Positions 9,704 through 31,682 of a stretch of 64,000 bases of DNA are shown in pieces (the first letter of the stretch is position 1; every line of letters starts with the position of its first letter). The position numbers and the translations under genes are program-made. Location of the stretch: positions 134 to 64,133 of the forward strand of contig CAMKPE010000010.1 of the NCBI GenBank assembly GCA_946414595.1, in the 5' to 3' direction. Source of the DNA: an uncultured Clostridium sp. (GTDB lineage: Bacteria; Bacillota_I; Bacilli_A; RF39; UBA660). A model generated the notes under the pieces. That model was not told the origin of the DNA and did not search any database. It was given only the letters and a program-made list of their open reading frames with translations.

Positions 9704-10070
9704 TCTTTTTATATTCTCTAATTATCCAAATCATTAATAAGGAAACTATATAATCTTTTTCAGTATCTGTTAATTCTCTTCCTTTAGGTATGTTATGCCA
9801 CTTTTCTAAACAAGATCTACAACAGCAACCACAAGCATGCATAGCAATGAAAACAGGATGTCCTTTCATAGGTGTTTGTTTACCATCATTTACCGGATTA
9901 CTAGGTACTAGTTTTTCATTAACAAAATCTATTGCATGTGACTTAACTATATCTAAACCTTTTTCATCTATATAAGAAATCATATACTTTCTAAGATGAA
10001 AACTACTTCTAAACTTAGATTTTGATAAAGATTCTAATTTCTTATTAATACTTATAACTTTATCATTCAT
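9696..10070 (-). CDS. DUF4186-like small protein with a conserved Cys cluster HACGCCCRSCLEKWHNIP.
   Basis: About 124 aa. KFRSSFHL...NDGKQTPMKGHPVFIAMHACGCCCRSCLEKWH matches my recollection of the DUF4186 family. Confidence 0.5.
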   Translation of the reverse strand: MNDKVISINKKLESLSKSKFRSSFHLRKYMISYIDEKGLDIVKSHAIDFVNEKLVPSNPVNDGKQTPMKGHPVFIAMHACGCCCRSCLEKWHNIPKGRELTDTEKDYIVSLLMIWIIREYKKSA

Positions 10071-11056
10071 TAGAACTTATAATCTAATTTAACTGCTGTT
10101 ACAATGTATAACGCATTATCCCAGTGGTGAGAACAAGTTTGCAATACAAGTATTTCTGATTCAGCATTTATACTTATATTTCTTGATTGAACAGGACTAT
10201 TAGTAATTGCATTAAAGTGATCAATAAAGTCTTGTCCAGTTAAATCAACTTTCATATGTTCACCATTAGTCTCTGATATTTCTTTAATTGATTTTATCTC
10301 ATATAAAGCTTTTCCACCTTCATATTGGAATATTATATATGGATGTGAATCAAAGAATTCTTTATCAAGAAACTTCTCAAGTTTTAAGAATGCTACTTTT
10401 ATATTTGTATCTCTTGTATTATGTCCATATATATTAATTTGTTTACTAGTAGGTTTAACTCTATAATCTAAAAATTCGGTTCCTCTTATATCATATTCTT
10501 TATCAACTGAATGTGTTAAGTAATAAGAATTATCATTTGATTGTGCTACTAATACGTTAAATAATTCAGGTATTTCAAGTCTTCCAACTATTTGATTATT
10601 GTTATGTTTCTTTCTTTCTGCTGCTATATCTATATCTTCAGCAAGTTTAAACTTAAAGCCATTAACAGTAGCATCTTCAGTTTCAGTACTTAACTCAGAT
10701 GGTGTTGGTTTATAAATGTCTGGTTCCGGTGGTTCTGGTTTAGGGCTAAAGTAATCTACTGCAAATACAATTGCTGATGCAACTAATACAAGCGAAAATA
10801 TTATATACATAATTATTTTAGTCTTGTTAGTTTTTTTCTTTTTCTTGTTAATAGGAGGCATATATCCCCCACCCATATTTGGATTAGGATTATAACCATT
10901 CATCCCTGGATTATAATTATTATTCATTCCCATATTATTACCACTAGTATTTAAAGGGAATGTATTATGACAATAAGTACAATTAGCCTGTTGACTATAA
11001 ATGTCAGTAACTACTTTTGCACCACATTGAGGACATACTACTTCCATATATCTCAT
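10070..11056 (-). CDS. Class B sortase-like transpeptidase fused to an N-terminal cytoplasmic zinc ribbon, an Asn/Gly/Pro-rich linker, a poly-Lys stretch and one TM helix.
   Basis: SrtB-like blocks YYLTHSVDKEYDIRGTEFLDYR, INIYGHNTRD (catalytic His) and ILVLQTCSHH (TLxTC Cys). N-terminus CPQCG...CTYCHN zinc ribbon. No Arg after the TLxTC block. Start chosen at MRYMEVV, which has an AGGAG RBS. Confidence 0.65.
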   Translation of the reverse strand: MRYMEVVCPQCGAKVVTDIYSQQANCTYCHNTFPLNTSGNNMGMNNNYNPGMNGYNPNPNMGGGYMPPINKKKKKTNKTKIIMYIIFSLVLVASAIVFAVDYFSPKPEPPEPDIYKPTPSELSTETEDATVNGFKFKLAEDIDIAAERKKHNNNQIVGRLEIPELFNVLVAQSNDNSYYLTHSVDKEYDIRGTEFLDYRVKPTSKQINIYGHNTRDTNIKVAFLKLEKFLDKEFFDSHPYIIFQYEGGKALYEIKSIKEISETNGEHMKVDLTGQDFIDHFNAITNSPVQSRNISINAESEILVLQTCSHHWDNALYIVTAVKLDYKF

Positions 11057-11103
11057 ATAATCATCTCCTATTATATATTTTAATTGTATCATAATTTATA
11101 AAA

Positions 11104-11132
11104 AGAAAAAATCCTTATTTCTAAGGATTTTA
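11104..11132. terminator. Hairpin terminator aaaaatcctta-tttc-taaggattttt. Sequence identical to the one at 14568..14597.
   Basis: Perfect inverted repeat flanked by A-run and T-run. Lies just downstream of the stop of giant gene 11168..14485. Confidence 0.55.
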
Positions 11133-11167
11133 CTTTTATTTACTATTATTAAACTAGATTAGATATT

Positions 11168-14100
11168 TTAGAAAAACATTGAAGTATTAGAATTTTCTTC
11201 TTTATTTGTTTCTTCTTTTACTTCTTTTTTCTTTTCGCCTTTTTCTTCATCTTCTTCTTTGTCTTCTTTATCACCAACTAATCCAGTTAATCCTAATCCT
11301 GCTGCACCTGCTGCTAATCCTGCTAGAGCACCAAGGGCTGCTGAACTTTGTCTAGTTTCCCCATTTATATTATACATAGCATCAAGTCCAGTATGTGGTC
11401 CATTTCCATCATAACCTCCATATCCTCCATATCCACTATCAGATGAATAAGAATCTGTAAACCATGGATTTGGATTATATGTTCTTGGTTCTGTTGAAAT
11501 TGTTGGAGTTCCAGAACGTCCTTCTGTACCTTGTTCTATTCCACTTTCTGTTTGTCTCTCAGAATGACTTTCAGTATGACTTTCAGTTCCTGGTTCTCCA
11601 GTTCCTCTTTCAGTGCTTCTTTCAGTACTTCTTTCAGATCTTCTCTCAGTACTTCCTTCAGTACTTCCTTCAGTACTTACTTCAGTACTTGTTTCTCCAG
11701 TTTTTCTCTCTGTACTCTTTTCACTACTTTGTTCAGATGTTCTTTCAACAGACTTAACTTCAAAATGATCAGGAATTGAAGAATATTCTTCTGGGAATAT
11801 TTCTCTTGCATAACCTATTGGAACGATTTCTCTTTGATCCCAAATAGTTACATCTGTACCTATCTTCTTTCCAGTTCTATCGAAGCACGCTACTCTTATT
11901 GTTCCTGTTAATGGATCAAATTCTCCAGTTACTGCATATATGTATCCATGTGCATCATCGTGAAGAATAACATCTCCTACTTTATAATCAATTACTACAC
12001 TGTGTCCACTTTCATCGACGCCATAATATCCATGCAGTGGCGTTATAACCGGCATCTGCGAGTAATCTTCAAATAATTTAATTACACTATCGTGACTCGA
12101 CGCATCACCATGAAGCAATAACGAATCTTTACTTTCAATCCATGAAGATCTATCCTCTAAATTAACTCCACGCCTATTTTTGAATCCATCTCCTACGAAG
12201 AATGATTCAAATGTATTTAGAGTTTGTTCAAAACTTACTATTTTATAATATTTATCAAGCATTTCTAAAAAGTCATCATTACATTTTTCTTGTTGAGGAA
12301 TAATATAATTGTTTATAAGATGTTCTTTTGCTTTTTCCAAATTATTTTTTTCTTTTAGTTTTGTCTCTACAGTAATATTATCTCTATTCCAGTCTTGAAC
12401 TCTTAAAGTATAATCACTGTCAGTTTCATCATCTTTTTGTACTGGCTTACTACCCACTTTTTCTTTTGCTTGATTATATGCTTTTGTTGCGTCAGATAAT
12501 AATCTTTCTAATTCACGCAAGTTACATCCCCATGAAGCTGCTCCAGCCGATGTTAAATAAGTTACGTCACTAGGGCAACCATCTACTAGAGAATAATCTT
12601 TATCTCCAATCCCCTGTCCTTTTAAATGGAATAATCTATCTTCTGAAGCCTTTAATGTAATAAGACAATCACATAACTCATCCAAAGATTCACATGCAGG
12701 TTTTAATGCGCTTTCTATATTTCCCATTGTTACTTCGAACTTACCTATTATAGTTTCAATGGCTTCTTTTTCGCTTTTACTTGCGCTACCTTCCCATCTT
12801 TGAAATTTTTCATGTGCAAGTTGAACTTGTTTCTTAAGTTCCTCAACTTCTTCCATTAAGTCATTTACAGTATAACCCCATTTTTTTTCATCAGGGAGTC
12901 CTAATTCTTTATATTTTTGTTCATAAATTGTACCATAAAAGTATTTATCTGGATATTGTTCTCCAAATTCATATCCATTTGCCTTCAAGCTATCAACCAT
13001 TAACTTCAAATCAGATACATTATACTGCCCAGTTGCTGCATATGTTGCTATATAGTCAATTGGACTAAACTTACTTGAACTAGTTCTTCCTAAAGGATTT
13101 CCAGTAACTTGCATTATTTCAAGTAGTCTTTCATTATTTGCTAATGTTGTTCTTTGAGCATTAGCACCCCCACTAGTTATTCCTGCATCGTATGATCCTG
13201 CTTCCTTTGCAGTACCATCCTTGTTCATATTTCCAAACGCACCCCATCCAGCATTATCACTACCTGTCGTTTGGGTTACGTGTGTTTCATGCATATATTC
13301 ATCATGCACATCAGGTCTATCTACTGATCCTACACCATTTTCTTTATTTATTGCTTCTGTTGCCCATGGCATTACAGAATCAGCACTTATTCTATCTCTT
13401 TCTTCACTACCTGAAACTTTATCTGGATCTAATCTATGTGTTGCTAGCAATTTTGCTTTTTCTTCTTCTGGTAATGAACTAAAATTATATTCTCTTTCTA
13501 AATAAGCTTCTAACCCTTCTTGTTTATCAAAATATCTAATTGGTTGATTTTGACCATTTGAATCTTTTTCATATTTTAACACATACGATCCATGCTCTTC
13601 AGATGCAGCTTCATTATTAGACAAAGCAACATATCCATCTGTTTTAATATGGTAATTGTCATGTCCTACTGCACGAATATTCGTTGCTATTGCTTCTGAT
13701 CTTCCAACAGTATCTGTTAATTGCATTATTGGATCATCCGGATTATCAGAATGTAATTCTGTTATAGTTGCACCTGTGATAGGATTTTTATGATCAGTAT
13801 CAGTAATAGCAAATAATGCATAATTGCCATCTTCATCTGGTAATATTTGTCCTTCTAATGGTTCCCCACCATCAACATAATATGTAACACGTCCCAAAAA
13901 AGTACGACCATCGCTAAATTTATAAGCACCTGAATCTCTCTCCCAAGAAGAACCATTAAATCTAATTCCTGGATAACCATGAGCCGAATATACCGTAGCA
14001 GAATCGTCAAATCTTGCAGTTCCTTTGACTTCAGTAAAAGCCGTTATATGTGCCTTTGAAGGGTCAATAGGACCAGTAGACTCACCAATTGGTTGCAACT

Positions 14101-14485
14101 CATAAGAGTTTTGTCCCTCTTTTTTTACAATAATACCTTCATGTGTAACTCCATCGCCCAATTGATATTCTACTCTTCCAGTATAATGCTCTACGCCATC
14201 ATCATTCCAACACTCATCAAAGTTAGCCCAAGTAGCACGAGTATATAATACTGGAAAAGCATTTCCAGATTGAATCCCAAAATTAGCTCCTGTTCCTCTT
14301 GAATCATCAATAATATCATATACATGCGTATCAGTACTATTTGCAGCAGTTGGATCAAAGCTCATCCTTGTTGATTCATCTCCAACCATTGCTCCAGGAA
14401 CTGGTCCTGAACCTGCCATTGGATCTGTTACTATCATTTCAGTATCTTCAGTTGTTGTAGTTATGGTTTCATCACTCATAACCAC
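11168..14485 (-). CDS. Giant paralog A, 1105 aa. Large secreted or surface protein of unknown function.
   Basis: Shares long conserved blocks with 14601..18245. Central WxG-like helix QRWEGSASKSEKEAIETIIGKFE. STE/TEGS tandem-repeat linker. C-terminus ...NGPHTGLDAMYNINGETRQSSAALGALAGLAAGAAGLGLTGLVGDKEDKEEDEE. Own promoter, strong RBS aggaggtgtggtt, own terminator. Confidence 0.7.
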   Translation of the reverse strand: MVMSDETITTTTEDTEMIVTDPMAGSGPVPGAMVGDESTRMSFDPTAANSTDTHVYDIIDDSRGTGANFGIQSGNAFPVLYTRATWANFDECWNDDGVEHYTGRVEYQLGDGVTHEGIIVKKEGQNSYELQPIGESTGPIDPSKAHITAFTEVKGTARFDDSATVYSAHGYPGIRFNGSSWERDSGAYKFSDGRTFLGRVTYYVDGGEPLEGQILPDEDGNYALFAITDTDHKNPITGATITELHSDNPDDPIMQLTDTVGRSEAIATNIRAVGHDNYHIKTDGYVALSNNEAASEEHGSYVLKYEKDSNGQNQPIRYFDKQEGLEAYLEREYNFSSLPEEEKAKLLATHRLDPDKVSGSEERDRISADSVMPWATEAINKENGVGSVDRPDVHDEYMHETHVTQTTGSDNAGWGAFGNMNKDGTAKEAGSYDAGITSGGANAQRTTLANNERLLEIMQVTGNPLGRTSSSKFSPIDYIATYAATGQYNVSDLKLMVDSLKANGYEFGEQYPDKYFYGTIYEQKYKELGLPDEKKWGYTVNDLMEEVEELKKQVQLAHEKFQRWEGSASKSEKEAIETIIGKFEVTMGNIESALKPACESLDELCDCLITLKASEDRLFHLKGQGIGDKDYSLVDGCPSDVTYLTSAGAASWGCNLRELERLLSDATKAYNQAKEKVGSKPVQKDDETDSDYTLRVQDWNRDNITVETKLKEKNNLEKAKEHLINNYIIPQQEKCNDDFLEMLDKYYKIVSFEQTLNTFESFFVGDGFKNRRGVNLEDRSSWIESKDSLLLHGDASSHDSVIKLFEDYSQMPVITPLHGYYGVDESGHSVVIDYKVGDVILHDDAHGYIYAVTGEFDPLTGTIRVACFDRTGKKIGTDVTIWDQREIVPIGYAREIFPEEYSSIPDHFEVKSVERTSEQSSEKSTERKTGETSTEVSTEGSTEGSTERRSERSTERSTERGTGEPGTESHTESHSERQTESGIEQGTEGRSGTPTISTEPRTYNPNPWFTDSYSSDSGYGGYGGYDGNGPHTGLDAMYNINGETRQSSAALGALAGLAAGAAGLGLTGLVGDKEDKEEDEEKGEKKKEVKEETNKEENSNTSMFF
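11560..11700 (-). repeat. In-frame 15-nt tandem repeats (ttcagtacttcc-like units) encoding the S/T/E/G-rich linker (STEGSTEGSTER...) of giant paralog A.
   Basis: Directly visible near-perfect tandem repeats of cagtacttccttcag units. Confidence 0.6.
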
Positions 14486-14567
14486 ACCTCCTAACTATTA
14501 ATTATTATAGTATTAACATATTATTACTATTTTCTATATCATATACATTGTATCATAATTTAGCAAA

Positions 14568-14597
14568 AGAAAAAATCCTTATTTCTAAGGATTTTTA
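14568..14597. terminator. Hairpin terminator identical to 11104..11132, downstream of giant paralog B.
   Basis: Same aaaaaatcctta-tttc-taaggattttt sequence. A-run and T-run on opposite sides. Confidence 0.55.
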
Positions 14598-14600
14598 TCT

Positions 14601-17600
14601 TTATTGATTATTTCCGAATGTTGTTTTATCAACATTTTGAGGTTTATCTTCAACTTCGATTGGGTGGTTTAGAGAAAACATTGGAGTTTCATCCTTTACT
14701 TCTTCTTTTTTCTCTTCTTTACCTTCCTCTTCGTCTTCTTCTTTATCCTCTTTATTGTCAACTAATCCAGTTAATCCTAAACCAGCTGCTCCAACCGCTA
14801 ATCCAGCAAGTGCTCCTAAACCAGCAGTGCTTTGTTTAGTTTCACCATTTGTATTATACATAGCATCAAGTCCAGTATGTGGTCCACCACCCCAGCTACC
14901 TGTTTCAGGTTCTGTGAATATTGGATGTGGAGCATATGTCTTATGCTCTGTTGGTTGTTCTGTTGGCCTATCTGTTGGTTGTTCTGTTGGTGCATCAGTT
15001 GGTCTATCTGTTGGTTGCTCTGAAGGTTTTTCAGTTGGTTTTTCAGTTGGTTTTTCTGTACCATGTGAAGTTGGTGCTTCAGTACCATGACCATGAGTTT
15101 TTCTCTCTGTCTTTCTTTCTGTATTCTTTTCAGGTTCAGAAACTGTCTCTGGTTCAGTCTCAAAGAAGTTATCTGGAATTGATGAATATTCTTCATCAAA
15201 GTCTCTAACATAACGAATTGGAACGATTTCTCTTTGATCCCAAATAGTTACGTCAGAACCAATCTTTCTACCTGTCTTATCGAAACATGCAATTCTTATT
15301 GTACCAGTTAATGGATCGAATTCTCCAGTAACTGCATAATAATATCCATGTGCATCATCGTGAATTAATACGTCACCAATCTTATATGGAACTATTGTAC
15401 TATGACCGTCTTCCCCAGCAGCATAGTAACCAGAAATTGGTGTAATAACCGGCATGCTCGAGTAATCTTCGAACAGCTTGATAATACTGTCGTGGGTCGG
15501 GTCGTTGTCGTCCAGATGGGTGAGCATCGAGTCTTTGCTTGAAATCCAAGAGCTTCTGTCTTGTAATGTAACTCCACGCTTGTTCTGGAATCCAGAACCA
15601 ACGAAGAATGATTCAAATGTATTAAGTGTTTGTTCAAAGTTAGTAATCTTATGATATAGTTCAATAACTGACATAAGTACACCATCACAAACAGTTGCTT
15701 GAGCTTCAATTAAAGCATCTACTTGTGTTTGTGCTGCCTGATACATGTGAACTTCTTTCAATTTATTTTCAGCTTCAGTTTTCCTAGATTGCCACTGCGA
15801 ATGTTGAGTATTATAACTTCTTAAACTTGCCTGATAAGTAGAATCTGGTTCAGTTGCTCCTTGAGTTGGTCTTATAGGTTCAGGACCAACTAGGTTAGAT
15901 AATCTTTGATAATCTTGTGAAGCATTATTTACGGCTTCTACTAATTCACGTTGATTCTTATTAACTGAAGCAGTTTCTCCATCGTATGATACTGTAATAG
16001 CACCATCAGGTAATCCATTACTTGGTGAAGTAGCTCCACCATCTCCTACAGAATATCCTTTAATAGCATATAACTTAGTTTCTTCTTTCTTCAAGTTTTC
16101 AAGTTCTGTACATAATTCTGTTAAAGCTTCACAAGCTGGTAATAATGATTCTCTAATGTTACCCATTGTAACTTCAAATTTACCAATGATAGTTTCAATA
16201 GCTTCTTTTTCACTATTACTTGCAGTTCCTTTCCATGAAAGGAATTTATCGTGAGCTGCTTTAGCATATTGTGCAAGTTCTTCAACTTCCGCTGCTAAAT
16301 CTTCAGCAGTATATCCCCATTGTGGTTCTCCTGGTAATCCTAATTGCTTATATTTTTGTTCATATGTTGTACCAAAGAAGTAACGTGCAGGGTGTGCTTC
16401 AAATTGAACACCATTTTGCTCTAATGCATCAACCATCAATTGTAAGTCATGTGCATTATATTGACCAGTTGCTGCATATGTAGCTATATAATCAAGTTTA
16501 CTAAATTTACTTGTATCTGTATTTCCTAAAGGGTTTCCAGTAGTACTTAGTATCTCTCCTAATCTACTATTATTATATAATGTTACTCTTGTAGCATTTG
16601 TTCCAGTAGTAACTCCTGGAGTAGATCCATTTGCTTTACCAGTTTCGGCATCCATATTACCAAATGCTCCCCAACCAGCATCATCACTACCTGTTGTTTG
16701 AGTAACGTGTGTTTCATGCATGTATTCATCATGCATATCAGGTCTATCTACTGATCCAACACCATTTTCTTTAGCAATTGCTTGTGTAGACCATGGCATT
16801 ACTGAATCAACGTCCATTTGACCATTTGGATGTGCATCTACTTTAGTTGGATCAACTTTTAAAGAATTCTTAACTGCCTCTTGTTCTTCTGGGCTCATGC
16901 TCTCTAAATCGTATCCAGCAAGATATGCGTCTAAGTCAGCTTGACTTTGGAAATATTTAACTGTATGAGTTTGTCCTGATGCATCAGTTTCTGTTAATGC
17001 AACATATTTTCCATGTGTACCAGCAGTTTCATTATTAGATAATGCTCTATAACCATCAGTTTTAATATGATAATCATCATGTCCAACTCCAGTTACATCA
17101 GAAACTTGTACTTGTGACTGATCTATTACATTTCCTTGAGCATCTTTTAATACTGTTATTGCATTATCTGCATTTTCATTATGTAAAACTGTTACTGTTG
17201 CCCCATCTACTGGGTTAGCTTGTGCAGTATCAGTTGCATCATATAACTTATATTCTCCAGTAGCAGGATCTTTTACGATAATACCATCGTGTGTTACTGT
17301 TGTAGTTACACCATCTTGTGTAACAGTTGTTGTATAAGTAACTTTTCCTTCGAATGCTGCTCCATCCTTAGTACCAGATGCAGTCCAGTTTCTACCATCG
17401 AATGTTACTCCACTACCAAGTTCAACATCCATGTCGTAAACAACTTTACCTTCACGACCTGTATATGCAGTAATTTTAGCTCCTGTTACTGTAGCACCAC
17501 TTGCATCTTGTAATTCGTAAGTTCCAGTTGGAGTCTTTACGATTTGACCCTCGTGTTCCCCACCATTAGAATCTGTATATTTAACAGGTCCTACATATTT

Positions 17601-18245
17601 TTCTTCACCTGGATTTTGTGAAGCCTGGCTATCTGGAACCCAAGTAGAATCAAAATCGACTTGATCTACATTTTCTGAATATGTTACATGATATGCATTA
17701 CCATCTTCTGGTTTTAATGTTTGTGGATTATTTCCCATTGCAGTATTTATATCATATGTATAAGTATCTGTTGTAACAGCTCCTTCTACTGTAATACCAC
17801 TTGCATTCATTGCTGGCCCTTCAAACACAGTAGAATCTGCTGTTGTAGTTGCTCCTGCTGTTGTTGTAGGATCAACAGTTACAGTTGGATCTGCTGTTCC
17901 ACTTCCTGTTGGGTCAACAGTTACAACCGGATCAGTTACCGGTGGCGTAGATGAAGCAGTTGTTGGTGCTTGCCACGCAGGTGGATTATCAGTGAAACTA
18001 CTACCATTTGTTTTAATACTTTCATGAGCTGCATTACTTCCTGCATCTAAAGATGTCCAGTTATAGCAAGCAGAACCATCAGTAGTTAAATAAGTTCTTG
18101 CATCTTGGATTGCTTGTGATAAATTACCACTATAATGTGTATCATTTTCAAAAAGCCAATGTCCCATTGCAATTGCAGCTGATTCTTGTGTTGAACAATG
18201 ACTTCCTTGAGTCATCCAAACCCAATCCCAATAATTATTTGCCAT
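14601..18245 (-). CDS. Giant paralog B, 1214 aa. Large secreted or surface protein of unknown function. Last gene of the 372aa-WXG-WXG operon.
   Basis: Paralogous to 11168..14485. Has a T/P-rich linker, WxG-like helix FLSWKGTASNSEKEAIETIIGKFE, a P-T-E-K/Q-P repeat linker, and C-terminal GGPHTGLDAMYNTNGETKQSTAGLGALAGLAVGAAGLGLTGLVDNKEDKEEDEEE. RBS aaagggggacctacaat ATG 17 nt after the stop of the WXG-like gene. Confidence 0.7.
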   Translation of the reverse strand: MANNYWDWVWMTQGSHCSTQESAAIAMGHWLFENDTHYSGNLSQAIQDARTYLTTDGSACYNWTSLDAGSNAAHESIKTNGSSFTDNPPAWQAPTTASSTPPVTDPVVTVDPTGSGTADPTVTVDPTTTAGATTTADSTVFEGPAMNASGITVEGAVTTDTYTYDINTAMGNNPQTLKPEDGNAYHVTYSENVDQVDFDSTWVPDSQASQNPGEEKYVGPVKYTDSNGGEHEGQIVKTPTGTYELQDASGATVTGAKITAYTGREGKVVYDMDVELGSGVTFDGRNWTASGTKDGAAFEGKVTYTTTVTQDGVTTTVTHDGIIVKDPATGEYKLYDATDTAQANPVDGATVTVLHNENADNAITVLKDAQGNVIDQSQVQVSDVTGVGHDDYHIKTDGYRALSNNETAGTHGKYVALTETDASGQTHTVKYFQSQADLDAYLAGYDLESMSPEEQEAVKNSLKVDPTKVDAHPNGQMDVDSVMPWSTQAIAKENGVGSVDRPDMHDEYMHETHVTQTTGSDDAGWGAFGNMDAETGKANGSTPGVTTGTNATRVTLYNNSRLGEILSTTGNPLGNTDTSKFSKLDYIATYAATGQYNAHDLQLMVDALEQNGVQFEAHPARYFFGTTYEQKYKQLGLPGEPQWGYTAEDLAAEVEELAQYAKAAHDKFLSWKGTASNSEKEAIETIIGKFEVTMGNIRESLLPACEALTELCTELENLKKEETKLYAIKGYSVGDGGATSPSNGLPDGAITVSYDGETASVNKNQRELVEAVNNASQDYQRLSNLVGPEPIRPTQGATEPDSTYQASLRSYNTQHSQWQSRKTEAENKLKEVHMYQAAQTQVDALIEAQATVCDGVLMSVIELYHKITNFEQTLNTFESFFVGSGFQNKRGVTLQDRSSWISSKDSMLTHLDDNDPTHDSIIKLFEDYSSMPVITPISGYYAAGEDGHSTIVPYKIGDVLIHDDAHGYYYAVTGEFDPLTGTIRIACFDKTGRKIGSDVTIWDQREIVPIRYVRDFDEEYSSIPDNFFETEPETVSEPEKNTERKTERKTHGHGTEAPTSHGTEKPTEKPTEKPSEQPTDRPTDAPTEQPTDRPTEQPTEHKTYAPHPIFTEPETGSWGGGPHTGLDAMYNTNGETKQSTAGLGALAGLAVGAAGLGLTGLVDNKEDKEEDEEEGKEEKKEEVKDETPMFSLNHPIEVEDKPQNVDKTTFGNNQ
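14935..15060 (-). repeat. In-frame 12-nt tandem repeats (tctgttggttgt-like) encoding the P-T-E-(K/Q)-P linker of giant paralog B.
   Basis: Visible tandem repetition gttggttgttctgttggcctatctgttggttgttctgttggtgcatcagttggtctatctgttggttgctc. Confidence 0.6.
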
Positions 18246-18262
18246 ATTGTAGGTCCCCCTTT

Positions 18263-18595
18263 CTAGCTATTAACATCTAGATTTTCAGCAAACTCTTCAA
18301 CGTTCTTGTTGATTTCTTCATTTACTAATCTATAGTCTTCTTTTGTTTTATTTAAAAATCTAATATAAATATCTAATGAATTTTCGATAGGATCATAATT
18401 TCCGTTAAGGATCTTATACTTTTCATACATGCTTCTTTGAGCTTGTCCTGTCCAAGTATCTGTCGCATTAACTTTTTCAGCATTTTGTTTTTGATTTGCA
18501 AAAACATCTTTCAACTTCATATATGAATTTGTTAATTCTGTAATTGTTTCTTCAAATTCACTAAAGTTGTTGATCTTCAAGTTCTGATTCGACAT
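18263..18595 (-). CDS. WXG100-like small helical protein, 110 aa (ATDTWTGQAQRSMYEKY). Candidate EsxB/Lap-type helper.
   Basis: Central W-x-G motif in a helical, acidic protein of about 100 aa. Strong RBS gaaggagg. 35-nt overlap with the upstream WXG gene. Confidence 0.55.
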   Translation of the reverse strand: MSNQNLKINNFSEFEETITELTNSYMKLKDVFANQKQNAEKVNATDTWTGQAQRSMYEKYKILNGNYDPIENSLDIYIRFLNKTKEDYRLVNEEINKNVEEFAENLDVNS

Positions 18596-18899
18596 AATTG
18601 ATAGCCTCCTTCTTTAACTCATTTCCACCTTCATCATCTTTTTCATCATAAAGGTTATTTGTTTCATTAACTGTATTAGAGATTTCTCTCATTGCTTGAG
18701 GAAGCTTTTTCATTTTCATTAAGTAGTTGTAGAAGTTGTTGCAGAATGTTTCTGCATCTTCTCCTTCCCAGTTTTCTCTTAACTTTTCAATGTTTGCAAG
18801 CATCTTCTCGATTTCTTCATCGAAATCAACACCGTCTTTGTCAATGGCATCTCTAACGTTTCCTAATTCTTCAGGATTAACTTTTAATACTCCGTCCAT
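18561..18899 (-). CDS. WXG100 family protein, EsxA-like. 112 aa.
   Basis: LKVNPEELGNVRDAID...LRENWEGEDAETF aligns with the S. aureus EsxA MSPEEIRAKS...ANWEGQAFSRF WXG core. RBS aggtga. Confidence 0.65.
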   Translation of the reverse strand: MDGVLKVNPEELGNVRDAIDKDGVDFDEEIEKMLANIEKLRENWEGEDAETFCNNFYNYLMKMKKLPQAMREISNTVNETNNLYDEKDDEGGNELKKEAINYVESELEDQQL

Positions 18900-18916
18900 A
18901 CATTATCACCTATCCT

Positions 18917-28702: not shown

Positions 28703-29371
28703 CTAAGCAGCTTTCTTTGTTAATATATTATTTCTAATCTTATTTAATATCTTAGATTCTTTTCTTGATACTTGTACTTGTGATATTCCCATAGTTTCAG
28801 ATGTTTCTTTTTGACTCTTATCTAAGAAATATCTATCTATTATTAATGATTTTTCTTCATCATTTAACTTTTCTATTTCTTCTTTTAAATCTAATATGTC
28901 TTCATTGTATCCTTTTTCTATATAAGCTTCATAATCATATAAGTTACTATCTTTATCTTCACTTAATTCATAATCTAAACTTTTAATAGACATACTACTA
29001 TTTATTGCAGAATAAATGCTTTCTATAGGTACTTCTAAGTATTCTGCTATTTCTTCTAAACTAGGCACTCTTTCTTTAACCTGTGTTAAATATTCTTTAA
29101 CTTTATTAATTGACCTTAATAATTTAGTATTCTCAATATTAACTTTTATTAATTTATTTTCTCTAACATACTTTAGTATTTCACCCTTAATATAAAAGTG
29201 TGCATAAGTAGAAAACTTAGTACCACTATCTTTCTTATAATTCTTTAAAGCATTATAAAGTCCAATATTACCTACTTGATATAAGTCTTCTAAATCATTT
29301 TCATTATAGCTATATTTCTTTGCTATAGAATATATTAACTTCCGATACTCTACTACCGTATTGTTATCCAT
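28703..29371 (-). CDS. Sporulation sigma-70 family factor, SigF/SigG-like.
   Basis: Region 2 LYQVGNIGLYNALKNYKKDSGTKFSTYAHFYIKGEILKYVR. Region 4 ETSETMGISQVQVSRKESKILNKI, almost identical to the B. subtilis SigF C-terminus. Start at MDNNTV with an AGGAGA RBS. Confidence 0.75.
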   Translation of the reverse strand: MDNNTVVEYRKLIYSIAKKYSYNENDLEDLYQVGNIGLYNALKNYKKDSGTKFSTYAHFYIKGEILKYVRENKLIKVNIENTKLLRSINKVKEYLTQVKERVPSLEEIAEYLEVPIESIYSAINSSMSIKSLDYELSEDKDSNLYDYEAYIEKGYNEDILDLKEEIEKLNDEEKSLIIDRYFLDKSQKETSETMGISQVQVSRKESKILNKIRNNILTKKAA

Positions 29372-29474
29372 TTTATCTCCTCTATGCATATAAATATAGA
29401 ACAATATTTTAAATATTTATACAGATTCGACAAAACTAGCTAAAAATAGAAAAAAAGTAATGTAAATAATTACA

Positions 29475-31682
29475 TTACTTATTGTTAACTAATATTGCAC
29501 TTGAATAAGTTACATTTCCTTGGCTATCTTCAATCTTGAATAAAGCATAGTATCTATTAGAAATATCTAAATCACTAAATTCTAATGTAAATGATTCAGT
29601 TGTATCTAATTGCATTTGTGCAATCTTTTGAGTTGATTGCCAATTAGTTCCATTTAATGTTGTATATTGATAACTATTAAATGAAATTATATCGTAGTCC
29701 TCAATTAATAATTCAACTTTAGGTGCTACTTTATCTTCTTTATCATTCATTGGTACAACTCTACCCATATATCCTTTAGGATGATCTTCATCAACTATGA
29801 ATTCAATATAAGCATTAATTACTTCATATTCATAATCATCACCAAATCTAGAAAGTGTTATTGGTATTAAATACTTAACATAATCTTTTCCTTTTTCACT
29901 TTCTAATGCAGTTAAGTTAAGAATATTTCCATCACCATCAGTAATAGATAACATCTTTCTTGATACTGTAGTGCTCATTGTATTTCCTTCAACATTTACA
30001 TCACTACCATTATAAATTGGTGTATATGTATTGTTGTCATTCATAATAAACAATGTATAACTTACATTACTGTAGTTCTTAGCAACATCATCAGTTGTAG
30101 TAATAGATATATTACCTTCTCCATTTGCTTTTACAGTACTTCTTGATAGATCAAATGTATTCATTCTCTTTCCAGTTAATTTATCTGCAAAGTTAGAAAT
30201 AAATTTAAAGTAGTCTCTAGCAAATCCAAAACCATCATAAATAGTCATTATGGAAGATAAATAATCTCTAAATTCATATGGGAAATATATTGATACACCA
30301 TAACTATCTTGTAAGTCTGATTTATTATAAATAACAAAATCATTTATTGAACTCTTTAAGTTATTAACATCTTCACTATATTTTTCAGGTAATCTGTTTG
30401 CAAAATCAACTAAGTCAATCAAGTCAAACGTATATTCACCATATGGATCTCTTCCAAAGCTCTTAGAATTTTTTCTTGTTCTTGTTATAGTTGAATAATC
30501 AATATCTAAATTATCATCAATATTTTCAAATAATTTATTTAAGTATTTTTCTACATTATCAATTTTATTAAGTCTCATAACTGATAATGTTACACCTTTT
30601 ATATAACTATATTTTCCATAATATGCATCGTAATAATCTACGATGGATTTAGTTAATGTTACTGTATCTGTATCTGGAGTTATTTCTCCTAAGAAACCAT
30701 AATCCCAACCAGCACCTGGTTCTGCTTCTTCACTGGCAACCAGGTAATCTGTATAGTCAACTAATGAATAAGCAACCTCAACGCTCGCCATTAAACAAGC
30801 ATCAAAACCAACATATTCAAGTTTTCTTTCAGGTCCAAATGGACTATCACTTAATGCTTTTTTAATCATTGAAAGTGACATAAATTTTCCTTCTTGGTAC
30901 TCGTCAGATCCATATCCAAAAATAGGTCCTCCACCATGATCCCATAGAATTAAACTATAATAATCTGCTTTATAATTATCATATCCATATTGTAATAAGT
31001 ATGTTAAGTTTGCTGGATCAAGCATATTATTAGAACCACCTAACTCTTCAAGTAATTCTAATCCATCATTAGTTAATCTATACAAAGCATGTTTATCACT
31101 TGGAATATTATAACTATGCCAATTAGTTGCTCCTCCTGTATAGATAAGTACATTTACTTTTTCAAAGTCAGCATTAGAATCTCTCATCTCTGCTATATCT
31201 TTTGTTGCACTAAAATATTTACTTTCAAGATCTGCTCCAATCATATAAACCATGATTGTTCTTTTTCCTGTTTTAGTATTAAATATTGTATCTTTAGTTA
31301 AAAGGAAAATTGTACCTAATAACACAAATACAAATACACAACAAATTATTGCAGGTATATGACTCTTCTTTTTATTGTCTCTATAATTGCTTTGGTAATT
31401 TCCATAGTTTGTATTATAACTTTGTCCTGCTTGAACATTAATTCCGTTATTTGCTATAGCATTATCAAATAAAACTGCTTTCTTAATTTCACTAGATGGA
31501 TTTGTTAGTTTGTTTCCACAGTTCCCACAGAACTTTTCATTACTTTCAAACTTTGATCCACAATTTTGGCAAAATACGACATTTTGTTTTTTTTCTAATA
31601 CTGCTGCACCACAATCTGGACAAAATCTTGTTTTGTCATCATATTCTTTGTTACAGTTTTTACAAAACATCATTGCACTCAC
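29475..31682 (-). CDS. Clostripain-like C11 family cysteine peptidase. N-terminal double zinc ribbon and one TM anchor. 735 aa.
   Basis: N-terminus FCKNCNKEYDDKTRFCPDCG ... FCQNCGSKFESNEKFCGNCG. TM IPAIICCVFVFVLLGTIFLL. C11 blocks MVYMIGADLES, VLIYTGGATNWH, ILWDHGGG, GFDACLMASVEVAY (His/Cys dyad). Confidence 0.65.
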   Translation of the reverse strand: MSAMMFCKNCNKEYDDKTRFCPDCGAAVLEKKQNVVFCQNCGSKFESNEKFCGNCGNKLTNPSSEIKKAVLFDNAIANNGINVQAGQSYNTNYGNYQSNYRDNKKKSHIPAIICCVFVFVLLGTIFLLTKDTIFNTKTGKRTIMVYMIGADLESKYFSATKDIAEMRDSNADFEKVNVLIYTGGATNWHSYNIPSDKHALYRLTNDGLELLEELGGSNNMLDPANLTYLLQYGYDNYKADYYSLILWDHGGGPIFGYGSDEYQEGKFMSLSMIKKALSDSPFGPERKLEYVGFDACLMASVEVAYSLVDYTDYLVASEEAEPGAGWDYGFLGEITPDTDTVTLTKSIVDYYDAYYGKYSYIKGVTLSVMRLNKIDNVEKYLNKLFENIDDNLDIDYSTITRTRKNSKSFGRDPYGEYTFDLIDLVDFANRLPEKYSEDVNNLKSSINDFVIYNKSDLQDSYGVSIYFPYEFRDYLSSIMTIYDGFGFARDYFKFISNFADKLTGKRMNTFDLSRSTVKANGEGNISITTTDDVAKNYSNVSYTLFIMNDNNTYTPIYNGSDVNVEGNTMSTTVSRKMLSITDGDGNILNLTALESEKGKDYVKYLIPITLSRFGDDYEYEVINAYIEFIVDEDHPKGYMGRVVPMNDKEDKVAPKVELLIEDYDIISFNSYQYTTLNGTNWQSTQKIAQMQLDTTESFTLEFSDLDISNRYYALFKIEDSQGNVTYSSAILVNNK

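What the first reader, a model, noticed from the sequence alone, without database searches (positions are those of the whole stretch)
11168..14900. GPHTG just upstream of the hydrophobic C-terminal segment in both giant paralogs: possible noncanonical sortase-B sorting signal
Both giant proteins carry G-P-H-T-G about 17 residues before the hydrophobic segment (NGPHTGLDAMYN... and GGGPHTGLDAMYN...). Class B sortases from clostridia recognise (S/P)PxTG-type motifs. A SrtB-like gene sits immediately downstream at 10070-11056. The 372-aa protein has the same anchor but no PxTG, so the anchor and the motif may be separable.
Basis: inference. Interest (0 to 1): 0.6.

Follow-up and report, generated by a model that had tools for sequence, protein, structure and literature searches.

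The report
Sortase signal on signal-peptide-less giant proteins
Two giant proteins end in a conserved P-x-T-G-[L/I]-D motif, a membrane helix and an acidic tail, next to an unusual sortase that lacks the usual catalytic arginine. This looks like a new cell-wall sorting signal on proteins that have no Sec signal peptide and sit beside type VII secretion-type (WXG100) genes.

Summary
GPHTG lies 16 residues before a Gly/Ala-rich hydrophobic segment in both giants. A class-B-like sortase gene follows at 10070-11056. The 372-aa protein has the same anchor but no PxTG.

The cassette [~300 aa]-WXG100-WXG100-like-giant-sortase recurs in at least five chromosomal contexts in uncultured gut Bacilli. Of 33 distinct giant C-termini, 32 keep P-x-T-G-[L/I]-[D/N/E/G] while the flanks diverge. 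The 33rd has P-I-H-T-G-L-D.

All 81 sortase relatives examined keep the catalytic His and Cys but have Tyr, Leu or Phe where the catalytic Arg should be. Some of them sit next to classical Sec-type PxTG substrates, so the missing Arg does not argue for a dead enzyme.

The signal is non-canonical in four ways:
- no N-terminal signal peptide
- WXG100 partner genes
- an acidic rather than basic tail
- no match to curated LPXTG-anchor models

A second, unrelated cassette pairs a sister sortase with signal-less PxTG proteins and a DUF4176 type VII chaperone.

Cleavage, the acceptor and type VII export are inferred, not shown. Verdict: a new variant of a sortase-substrate system, possibly the first link between type VII secretion and sortase.

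The parts
18917..20035 (-). First cassette gene, 372 aa. Helical N-terminus. C-terminal Gly/Ala-rich anchor (residues 311-330, nt 19046-19105) plus an acidic tail. No PxTG.
   Evidence: Homologs are the first gene of the cassette in L001-L023. Only the window clade (L001, L002, L009) carries the anchor.
18561..18899 (-). WXG100 protein, 112 aa, with WEG motif.
   Evidence: PF06013 scores 37.0 bits (cut-off 27.3). TIGR03930 scores 48.8 bits (cut-off 44.85).
18263..18595 (-). Second small WXG100-like protein, 110 aa, with WTG motif. It overlaps the first by 35 nt.
   Evidence: Sub-threshold PF06013 and TIGR03930 hits. The pair is conserved in every cassette.
14601..18245 (-). Giant A, 1214 aa, no signal peptide. 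Internal helix-WKG-helix (WKG at nt 16227-16235). P/T/E-rich linker (14886-15170). GPHTGLD (14865-14885). Gly/Ala-rich TM (14760-14822). Acidic tail (14604-14759).
   Evidence: The ORF is maximal and starts 18 nt after the upstream stop codon.
11168..14485 (-). Giant B, 1105 aa, a paralog of giant A (59% identity in the core). WEG at nt 12788-12796. S/T/E-rich linker (11402-11767). GPHTGLD (11381-11401). TM (11276-11338). Acidic tail ending in MFF (11171-11275).
11099..11131 (-). 10-bp hairpin followed by a U-run between giant B and the sortase gene (terminator or attenuator-like).
   Evidence: dG -14 kcal/mol, z = -2.4. The consensus scan missed it because the stem has few G-C pairs.
10070..11056 (-). 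Class-B-like sortase, 328 aa. Cytoplasmic CxxC...CxxC zinc ribbon (10970-11035). Lys-rich stretch plus TM (10757-10816). Extracytoplasmic catalytic domain with YGHN (His212, 10418-10429) and LQTCSHH (Cys308, 10124-10144). Leu316 (10109-10111) occupies the position of the catalytic Arg.

Best explanation
The GPHTG motif is the core of a tripartite C-terminal sorting signal. The signal has a low-complexity P/T/E-rich spacer, then x-P-x-T-G-[L/I]-[D/N/E/G]. About 17 variable residues follow, then a Gly/Ala-rich transmembrane helix (LGALAGLAxGAAGLGLTGL) and a Lys/Asp/Glu tail with a net negative charge. The adjacent divergent class-B-type sortase most likely reads this signal.

Proposed sequence of events:
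1. The giants have no Sec signal peptide, contain an internal helix-WxG-helix domain, and are encoded directly after a WXG100 pair. They are most likely exported by a type VIIb-like route with the two small proteins as partners.
2. The C-terminal helix holds the precursor at the membrane.
3. The sortase is anchored N-in/C-out. Its Cys308 attacks the Thr-Gly bond, releasing the anchor and tail.
4. The giant is transferred to a cell-wall acceptor, with the P/T-rich spacer spanning the wall.
5. The 372-aa protein has the anchor but no motif, so it would stay in the membrane.

Shown here: the anatomy, the conservation, the gene linkage, and the fold and residue pattern of the sortase.
Inferred: export, topology, cleavage at T|G, and the acceptor.
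For: Motif conservation:
- P, T and G are invariant in 32 of 33 distinct anchor-bearing C-termini, 14-23 aa before the anchor.
- The flanks are unalignable.

Gene linkage:
- The cassette [~300 aa]-WXG-WXG-giant-sortase is kept in different chromosomal contexts: next to DUF4186 (window, L001-L004), next to YkuD (L005), between trmD and rplS (L007, L019, L020), and others.
- In 19 of 20 close-clade loci with enough upstream DNA, a PxTG giant lies within 1.3 kb of the sortase gene.

The sortase:
- It matches C. difficile SrtB at E = 2e-18.
- The AlphaFold2 model has pLDDT 84.6, and its top 19 PDB matches are all class B sortases, with TM-score up to 0.88.
- His and Cys are invariant in 81 of 81 sequences.
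- A Lys-rich stretch before the TM places the catalytic domain outside the cell.
- Relatives in the same Arg-less clade flank classical Sec substrates carrying xPxTG[VIL], a TM segment and a basic tail, for example L028, L037, L043, L062, L072 and L078. The L078 substrate nearly reaches the LPXTG_anchor cut-off.

Export route:
- No giant has an N-terminal hydrophobic segment.
- The first small protein is a bona fide WXG100.
- The giant core is predicted as helix-WxG-helix.
- Its profile also hits ~100-aa proteins and the N-termini of 0.6-5.3 kaa proteins that give weak WXG100 matches.
- An independent cassette pairs a sister sortase with signal-less IP[NQ]TG[VI] proteins that have the same kind of anchor and acidic tail. 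It also carries a DUF4176 gene (E = 4e-25), a family of T7SSb toxin chaperones (PMC12478183).

Precedent: C. difficile SrtB uses (S/P)PxTG (PMC4371152).
Against: - The catalytic Arg, considered essential in characterised sortases (PMC4371152), is replaced by Leu. No relocated conserved Arg was found.
- The sortase scores below the curated cut-offs: TIGR03064 84 versus 153.75, PF04203 25 versus 26.6.
- The tail is acidic, the motif lies 77-94 aa from the C-terminus, and the gap between motif and TM (16 aa) is long. These features are unlike classical sorting signals.
- No EssC-like multi-P-loop ATPase lies in the window or in any of the loci then held (L001-L088, 1.39 Mb in all). Whether these genomes have a T7SS was not tested.
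- No LXG model matches the giants.
- T7SS is not known to leave a C-terminal helix in the membrane.
- A hairpin terminator separates giant B from the sortase gene, whose stop codon overlaps the start of a DUF4186 gene.
- Much of the conservation comes from related genomes.
Confidence: 0.6

Rival explanations
1. The sortase-like enzyme recognises PxTG but does not anchor the giant to peptidoglycan. Without the Arg, it may work as a processing protease (sheddase) that releases the giant from its membrane anchor. Alternatively it may join the giant to another protein, or act as a non-catalytic docking partner.
For: The Arg is missing in all 81 clade members. The active site is remodelled: Gln306 is invariant where C. 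difficile has Ser207, and His267 is invariant where C. difficile has Tyr. Scores fall below the curated sortase cut-offs. The related uncultured orders are reported to have partly reduced peptidoglycan pathways (PMC10868615).
Against: His212 and Cys308 are invariant, which argues against a dead enzyme. The P/T-rich spacer before the motif is typical of wall-spanning regions. Clade members sit next to classical wall-anchor-type substrates. The window encodes peptidoglycan enzymes and sporulation genes. The giants have no canonical YPKN pilin motif.
Confidence: 0.17
2. PxTG[LI]D is a conserved juxtamembrane part of the anchor module, with a role unrelated to the sortase. It could be an export or recognition signal, or an oligomerisation element. 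The neighbouring sortase would then act on other proteins.
For: The whole module (motif, Gly/Ala-rich helix, DK-rich tail) is conserved together. The 372-aa protein uses the anchor without the motif. The hairpin terminator and the overlap of the sortase stop codon with the DUF4186 start suggest partly separate transcription. One close-clade locus (L018) has the sortase gene without an anchored giant.
Against: P, T and G are exactly the residues a PxTG sortase needs, and they are the only invariant ones outside the helix. The sortase gene travels with the giant gene through different contexts, while DUF4186 does not. An unrelated signal-less protein family next to a sister sortase carries the same motif.
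Confidence: 0.13
3. The giants are cytoplasmic tail-anchored membrane proteins and are never exported. PxTG would then lie on the cytoplasmic face and could never meet the extracytoplasmic sortase.
For: The giants have no signal peptide. No T7SS core gene was found nearby. The acidic tail does not obey the positive-inside rule.
Against: WXG100 partners and DUF4176 in the sister cassette point to export. So do the P/T-rich spacers and the conserved linkage to an extracytoplasmic enzyme.
Confidence: 0.07

Closest known systems
Clostridioides difficile SrtB and its (S/P)PxTG substrates (PMC4371152, PMC4155245)
   Same: Class B sortase fold. N-terminal membrane anchor. His and Cys (the xTC motif). 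A Pro-x-Thr-Gly core motif followed by a hydrophobic segment. The best sequence match in the PDB (E = 2e-18).
   Different: The catalytic Arg (R234, or R217 in PDB numbering) is Leu here. Ser207 is Gln. The substrates here lack a signal peptide, have an acidic tail, and carry the motif 77-94 aa from the C-terminus. There is no preference for S or P before the Pro, and L/I-D after the Gly is strongly conserved.
AbpA-SrtB locus of oral streptococci (PMC4974636; NCBIfam NF040525)
   Same: A dedicated class B sortase encoded beside its own substrate, which carries a non-LPXTG sorting signal.
   Different: The motif differs (LPKTxAVK type). AbpA is a small Sec-dependent adhesin. The window sortase scores only 39 bits against a cut-off of 200 for that model.
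T7SSb effector loci: an LXG protein with small helical or WXG100-like targeting factors and a DUF4176 chaperone (PMC10801868, PMC12478183)
   Same: A large signal-less protein encoded after two ~100-aa helical proteins, one of them a bona fide WXG100. A helix-WxG-helix domain. DUF4176 in the sister cassette.
   Different: The WxG domain is internal rather than N-terminal. No LXG model matches. The C-terminus is a sorting-signal-like anchor instead of a toxin domain. No immunity gene is evident. No ess core genes are nearby.

Membership tests
Class B sortase (TIGR03064 / PF04203) | Sortase beta-barrel fold with class B features | tested here: met
   AlphaFold2 model with pLDDT 84.6. The top 19 Foldseek PDB hits are all SrtB. 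TM-score 0.88 and rmsd 2.0 A against C. perfringens SrtB.
Class B sortase (TIGR03064 / PF04203) | Catalytic His and Cys (TLxTC-type motif) | tested here: met
   YGHN His212 and LQTC Cys308 are invariant in 81 of 81 sequences.
Class B sortase (TIGR03064 / PF04203) | Catalytic Arg on strand beta8 | tested here: not met
   The Arg in C. difficile 'DDARMVI' aligns to Leu316. The column is Y46/L25/F10 and never R.
Class B sortase (TIGR03064 / PF04203) | Score above the curated family cut-off | tested here: not met
   TIGR03064: 84 bits versus 153.75. PF04203: 25 versus 26.6.
Class B sortase (TIGR03064 / PF04203) | N-terminal membrane anchor with the catalytic domain outside the cell | tested here: met
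   KKKKKTNKTK followed by a 20-aa hydrophobic helix (pLDDT >90) before the catalytic domain. The topology is inferred from the charge distribution.
Class B sortase (TIGR03064 / PF04203) | Transpeptidase activity on its motif | not testable with these tools
   Requires an enzyme assay.
Cell-wall sorting signal (LPXTG-type) | N-terminal Sec signal peptide on the precursor | tested here: not met
   The ORFs are maximal. The best 15-residue hydrophobicity window within the first 40-45 residues averages 1.2 or less in all giants, against more than 2 (1.7 at the lowest) for the Sec substrates in the same data. This is a heuristic; SignalP was not run.
Cell-wall sorting signal (LPXTG-type) | Pentapeptide with a Thr-Gly scissile bond | tested here: met
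   x-P-x-T-G in 32 of 33 C-termini. Cleavage itself was not tested.
Cell-wall sorting signal (LPXTG-type) | Hydrophobic segment after the motif | tested here: met
   A 21-aa Gly/Ala-rich segment with mean Kyte-Doolittle hydropathy of 1.4-1.75, 14-23 aa after the Gly.
Cell-wall sorting signal (LPXTG-type) | Short, positively charged tail | tested here: not met
   Tails are 17-71 aa long and net acidic in every case (K/R 3-14 versus D/E 8-25).
Cell-wall sorting signal (LPXTG-type) | Match to the curated LPXTG_anchor model TIGR01167 | tested here: not met
   No hit at E <= 10 for either giant. The Sec-type control from L078 scores 14.7 against a cut-off of 15.9.
T7SSb substrate (LXG/WXG100 type) | Adjacent WXG100-family partner gene(s) | tested here: met
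   PF06013 and TIGR03930 score above their cut-offs for 18561-18899. The pair is present in all cassettes.
T7SSb substrate (LXG/WXG100 type) | N-terminal LXG domain (PF04740) | tested here: not met
   No Pfam or NCBIfam hit for the giants or for sub-segments. The WxG hairpin is internal.
T7SSb substrate (LXG/WXG100 type) | WXG100-like helical hairpin in the substrate | tested here: inconclusive
   The low-confidence model shows helix 268-291, W292-x-G294, helix 298-350. The profile hits small proteins with weak WXG100 matches, E = 5e-4 to 7e-2.
T7SSb substrate (LXG/WXG100 type) | EssC-type ATPase and ess core genes in the same genome | not testable with these tools
   None in the window or the loci held (L001-L088; 1.39 Mb in all). 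Whole genomes could not be scanned.

The most novel reading that the evidence does not exclude
In a clade of uncultured gut Bacilli, a dedicated sortase family covalently sorts proteins exported by a type VII (WXG100/DUF4176-associated) route. The sortase works without the canonical catalytic arginine. It reads a distinct signal: PxTG[L/I]D, a Gly/Ala-rich helix, then an acidic tail. This would be the first functional coupling of type VII secretion with sortase-mediated surface attachment. It would also define a second class of sorting signal, matched to the export route: acidic tail for the type VII route, basic tail for Sec.
Probability: 0.35. Interest if true: 0.85.

Novelty: new variant of a known kind. 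Interest (0 to 1): 0.7.

Why it matters
- **A new sorting signal and sortase subfamily.** Both are invisible to current curated models. A published survey reports that related uncultured orders lack srtA/srtB (PMC10868615). Whether the window organism belongs to those orders was not established.
- **Catalysis without the arginine.** 81 of 81 sortases keep Cys and His but not the supposedly essential Arg. This bears on the sortase mechanism and may offer a new specificity for sortase-mediated ligation.
- **A possible type VII-sortase link.** If export is type VII-dependent, substrates of that pathway can become wall-anchored surface structures, not only toxins. That would also raise the question of how a C-terminal helix is handled by the type VII machine.
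- **Surface biology of uncultured gut bacteria.** The giants are the largest and probably most exposed proteins of small-genome rumen and gut bacteria that cannot be cultured. They are candidates for adhesion or host interaction.

Tried and rejected
- **False positives.** 'TIPTTGIT' and 'LIPVTGVT' motifs in 360-aa proteins next to distant sortases first looked like substrates. They are the conserved FtsW/RodA motif of polytopic membrane proteins and were discarded.
- **No family for the giants.** Pfam and NCBIfam scans of the giants, of sub-segments and of the C-terminal 90-99 aa gave no family and no sorting-signal model.
- **Structure of the giant core.** The AlphaFold2 model was poor (pLDDT 54.6, only 4 sequences). 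Foldseek against the PDB returned only generic long-helix bundles such as F-BAR domains, which is uninformative.
- **Type VII core genes.** A search for EssC-like ORFs (at least 600 aa with at least two Walker A motifs) in the window and the loci then held (L001-L088) found none.
- **Relocated Arg.** No family-wide conserved Arg was found apart from Arg199, which canonical SrtB also has.
- **Pilin motif.** A canonical YPKN-type motif is absent from the giants.
- **Identity of the window's organism.** Exact look-ups returned no name or record.
- **Literature.** Searches for sortase with WXG100, T7SS or LXG found no paper describing such a coupling in the held library.
- **Extra context look-ups.** Distant giants confirmed the WXG pair, but the contigs ended before the expected sortase gene.


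Full report
**Setting.** The window is a chromosomal stretch of a low-GC (about 27%) spore-forming Firmicute. It carries an RNA polymerase sigma factor gene (28703-29404) beside the spoVA genes, and also scpA/scpB and a PBP5-type carboxypeptidase. The genes of interest are all on the minus strand, in this order:
- a 372-aa protein (18917-20035)
- a WXG100 protein (18561-18899)
- a second WXG100-like protein (18263-18595)
- giant A (14601-18245, 1214 aa)
- giant B (11168-14485, 1105 aa)
- a hairpin followed by a U-run (about 11099-11131)
- a sortase-like gene (10070-11056), whose stop codon overlaps the start of a DUF4186 gene

**Observation.**
- GPHTG lies at residues 1029-1033 of giant B (nt 11387-11401) and at 1121-1125 of giant A (nt 14871-14885).
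- In both giants, 16 residues separate the Gly from a 21-residue Gly/Ala-rich hydrophobic segment.
- Tails of 35 and 52 residues follow. They are rich in Lys, Asp and Glu, and net acidic.
- The 372-aa protein has a homologous anchor and tail but no P.TG.

By chance alone, one P.TG in a 130-residue C-terminus is not remarkable. The background is about 3-6 occurrences per 9276 positions. The two giants are also paralogs, 59% identical in the core. The evidence therefore has to come from comparison with other genomes.

**The sortase.**
- Its catalytic part matches C. difficile SrtB at E = 2e-18.
- The AlphaFold2 model is confident (pLDDT 84.6).
- The 19 best PDB matches are all class B sortases, with TM-score up to 0.88.
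- It has a cytoplasmic zinc ribbon, a Lys-rich stretch, one TM helix and an extracytoplasmic domain.
- His212 (YGHN) and Cys308 (LQTCSHH) are present.
- The catalytic Arg of C. difficile SrtB (R234; R217 in PDB numbering; PMC4371152 and the 6kyd title) aligns to Leu316.
- It falls below the curated cut-offs of TIGR03064 and PF04203.

The missing Arg is not a lesion in one gene. About 210 homologs exist. In an alignment of the window protein with 80 relatives from species-representative genomes, His and Cys are invariant. The Arg column is Tyr (46), Leu (25) or Phe (10), and never Arg. Family-specific invariant residues include Gln306 (Ser207 in C. difficile SrtB) and His267.

**Linkage.** The cassette [~260-370 aa protein]-WXG100-WXG100-like-giant-sortase recurs in different chromosomal surroundings in uncultured gut and rumen 'Bacilli' MAGs:
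- beside DUF4186 (window, L001-L004, L009)
- beside a YkuD gene, with the substrate part duplicated (L005)
- between trmD and rplS (L007, L019, L020)
- in further contexts (L013, L016, L022)

In L017, L019 and L021 a glycosyltransferase-like gene sits between the giant and the sortase gene. Of 20 close-clade loci with enough upstream DNA, 19 have an anchored giant within 1.3 kb of the sortase gene. L018 is the exception.

**Motif conservation.** A profile of the giant core found only 77 cluster representatives among 1.84 billion proteins. These were combined with the locus-encoded giants.
- 32 of 33 distinct anchor-bearing C-termini carry P-x-T-G-[L/I], 14-23 residues (median 17) before the anchor.
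- The 33rd has P-I-H-T-G-L-D.
- The residue after L/I is D (22), N (5), E (3) or G (2).
- The x position is His in 21 of 32.
- The residue before Pro varies.
- The preceding P/T/E-rich spacer and the stretch after the motif cannot be aligned between clades.
- Every tail is net acidic.
- No giant has an N-terminal hydrophobic segment.

**Support from the wider sortase clade.** More distant members of the same Arg-less clade flank two kinds of proteins.
- Textbook Sec substrates. These have a signal peptide, xPxTG[V/I/L], a hydrophobic segment and a KKKFN or RKRGF tail. They are often the immediately adjacent gene, as in L028, L037, L043, L062, L072 and L078. The L078 example almost reaches the curated LPXTG_anchor cut-off, whereas the giants give no hit.
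- A second, unrelated family of signal-less 830-1230-aa proteins (L039, L046-L049, L066). These end in IP[N/Q]TG[V/I], a Gly/Ala-rich helix and an acidic tail. Each follows a ~115-aa helical protein and precedes a DUF4176 gene. DUF4176 proteins are chaperones of T7SSb-exported LXG toxins (PMC12478183).

PxTG therefore goes with this sortase clade. The basic-tail version goes with Sec substrates. The acidic-tail, Gly/Ala-helix version goes with signal-less proteins that have type VII-type partner genes.

**Export route.**
- The first small protein passes the WXG100 thresholds.
- The giant core is predicted, at low confidence, as helix-W-x-G-helix followed by long helices and a C-terminal beta domain.
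- The same profile region matches ~100-140-aa proteins and the N-termini of 0.6-5.3 kaa proteins. Those give weak WXG100 hits.

This fits a type VII-like substrate, but it is circumstantial. No LXG model matches. No EssC-like gene lies in the 1.39 Mb examined. Whole genomes could not be scanned.

**Mechanism proposed.**
1. The giant is exported together with the WXG100 pair.
2. It is held at the membrane by the Gly/Ala-rich helix.
3. Cys308 of the sortase cleaves between Thr and Gly.
4. The giant is transferred to a wall acceptor, with the P/T-rich spacer spanning the wall.
5. The motif-less 372-aa protein remains in the membrane.

The alternatives are release rather than anchoring, a motif unrelated to the sortase, and cytoplasmic tail-anchored giants. 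Each is listed with its test under the rival explanations.

**Known versus new.** The nearest systems are:
- C. difficile SrtB with (S/P)PxTG (PMC4371152)
- the AbpA-SrtB pair (PMC4974636)
- T7SSb effector loci (PMC10801868, PMC12478183)

This system fails defining features of each of the three families tested: the catalytic Arg and curated scores for SrtB, the signal peptide and basic tail for the sorting signal, and the N-terminal LXG domain for T7SSb substrates. No paper linking sortase and type VII substrates was found in the held library. A survey of related uncultured orders reports that they lack srtA/srtB (PMC10868615). That would be expected if only divergent enzymes like this one are present. 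The taxon of the window was not established.

**Verdict.** This is a new variant of a sortase-substrate system. A more novel reading, a type VII-sortase coupling, remains open.

Noticed in passing
window 10970-11035 (sortase residues 8-29): The sortase of this clade has an N-terminal CxxC...CxxC zinc ribbon (pLDDT about 90) and an Asn/Gly/Met/Pro-rich linker on the cytoplasmic side. Most relatives (~250 aa) lack it. It could meet the cytoplasmic acidic tails of the substrates.
   Followed up: partly
window 11171-11185 and 14679-14693; homologs P0129, P0134, P0137, P0156: Many acidic tails end in, or contain, a short hydrophobic motif: ...SMFF, NPQFF, KPQMF, or NPMFSLNHPIEVE in giant A. It may be a separate recognition element, for example for export.
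   Followed up: no
window ~13230-13330 (giant B residues ~386-420) and the equivalent region in giant A: VDRPDVHDEYMHETHVTQTTGSDxAGWGAFGNM is almost invariant across the family, yet it is predicted with very low confidence (pLDDT about 25). It may be a binding site that folds on a partner, or a metal site.
   Followed up: no
sortase residue 312 (window 10121-10123) versus the residue after Thr-Gly: Sortases with Trp four residues after the catalytic Cys go with TG-Leu substrates (7 lineages, 1 exception in L005). Those with Leu or Ile at that position go with TG-Ile (6 lineages). This could be enzyme-substrate co-variation, but it is confounded by phylogeny.
   Followed up: partly
L017 3891-5003, L019 8724-9836, L021; also L013 4758-5855: A 365-370-aa glycosyltransferase-like protein with TPR-like repeats is inserted between the giant and the sortase gene, or lies just upstream of the cassette. 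This hints that the long Pro-Thr repeats are glycosylated.
   Followed up: no
L025 2125-3879 and L026 3559-5334: Signal-less 584-591-aa proteins follow two small helical proteins. They end in AIP[D/N]TRVD, then a hydrophobic segment and a KKNKKK tail, a few kb upstream of a clade sortase. This may be a T-R variant of the motif.
   Followed up: no
L018 3991-9945: This is the one close-clade locus without an anchored giant. Instead it has a WXG100 protein and two 387-388-aa proteins with a helical N-terminus and an esterase/PHB-depolymerase-like C-terminus (toxin-like), then a 969-aa protein before the sortase gene.
   Followed up: partly
window 20206-20460 (-): An 84-aa ORF with two hydrophobic segments in the spacer upstream of the cassette is conserved in L001 and L002.
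   Followed up: partly
window 11000-20000: The cassette is more GC-rich (0.34-0.37) than its surroundings (about 0.27). This could reflect amino-acid composition (Gly, Ala, Pro, Thr) or foreign origin.
   Followed up: no
window 21523-21551 (-): A perfect 12/12 sigma-70 consensus promoter (TTGACA-17-TATAAT) lies upstream of the 322-aa gene of unknown function (20525-21493), which precedes the cassette in the window clade.
   Followed up: no
window 29475-31682 (-): A clostripain-family (C11) peptidase is fused to N-terminal double zinc ribbons. This repeats the zinc-ribbon-plus-extracytoplasmic-enzyme layout seen in the sortase.
   Followed up: no
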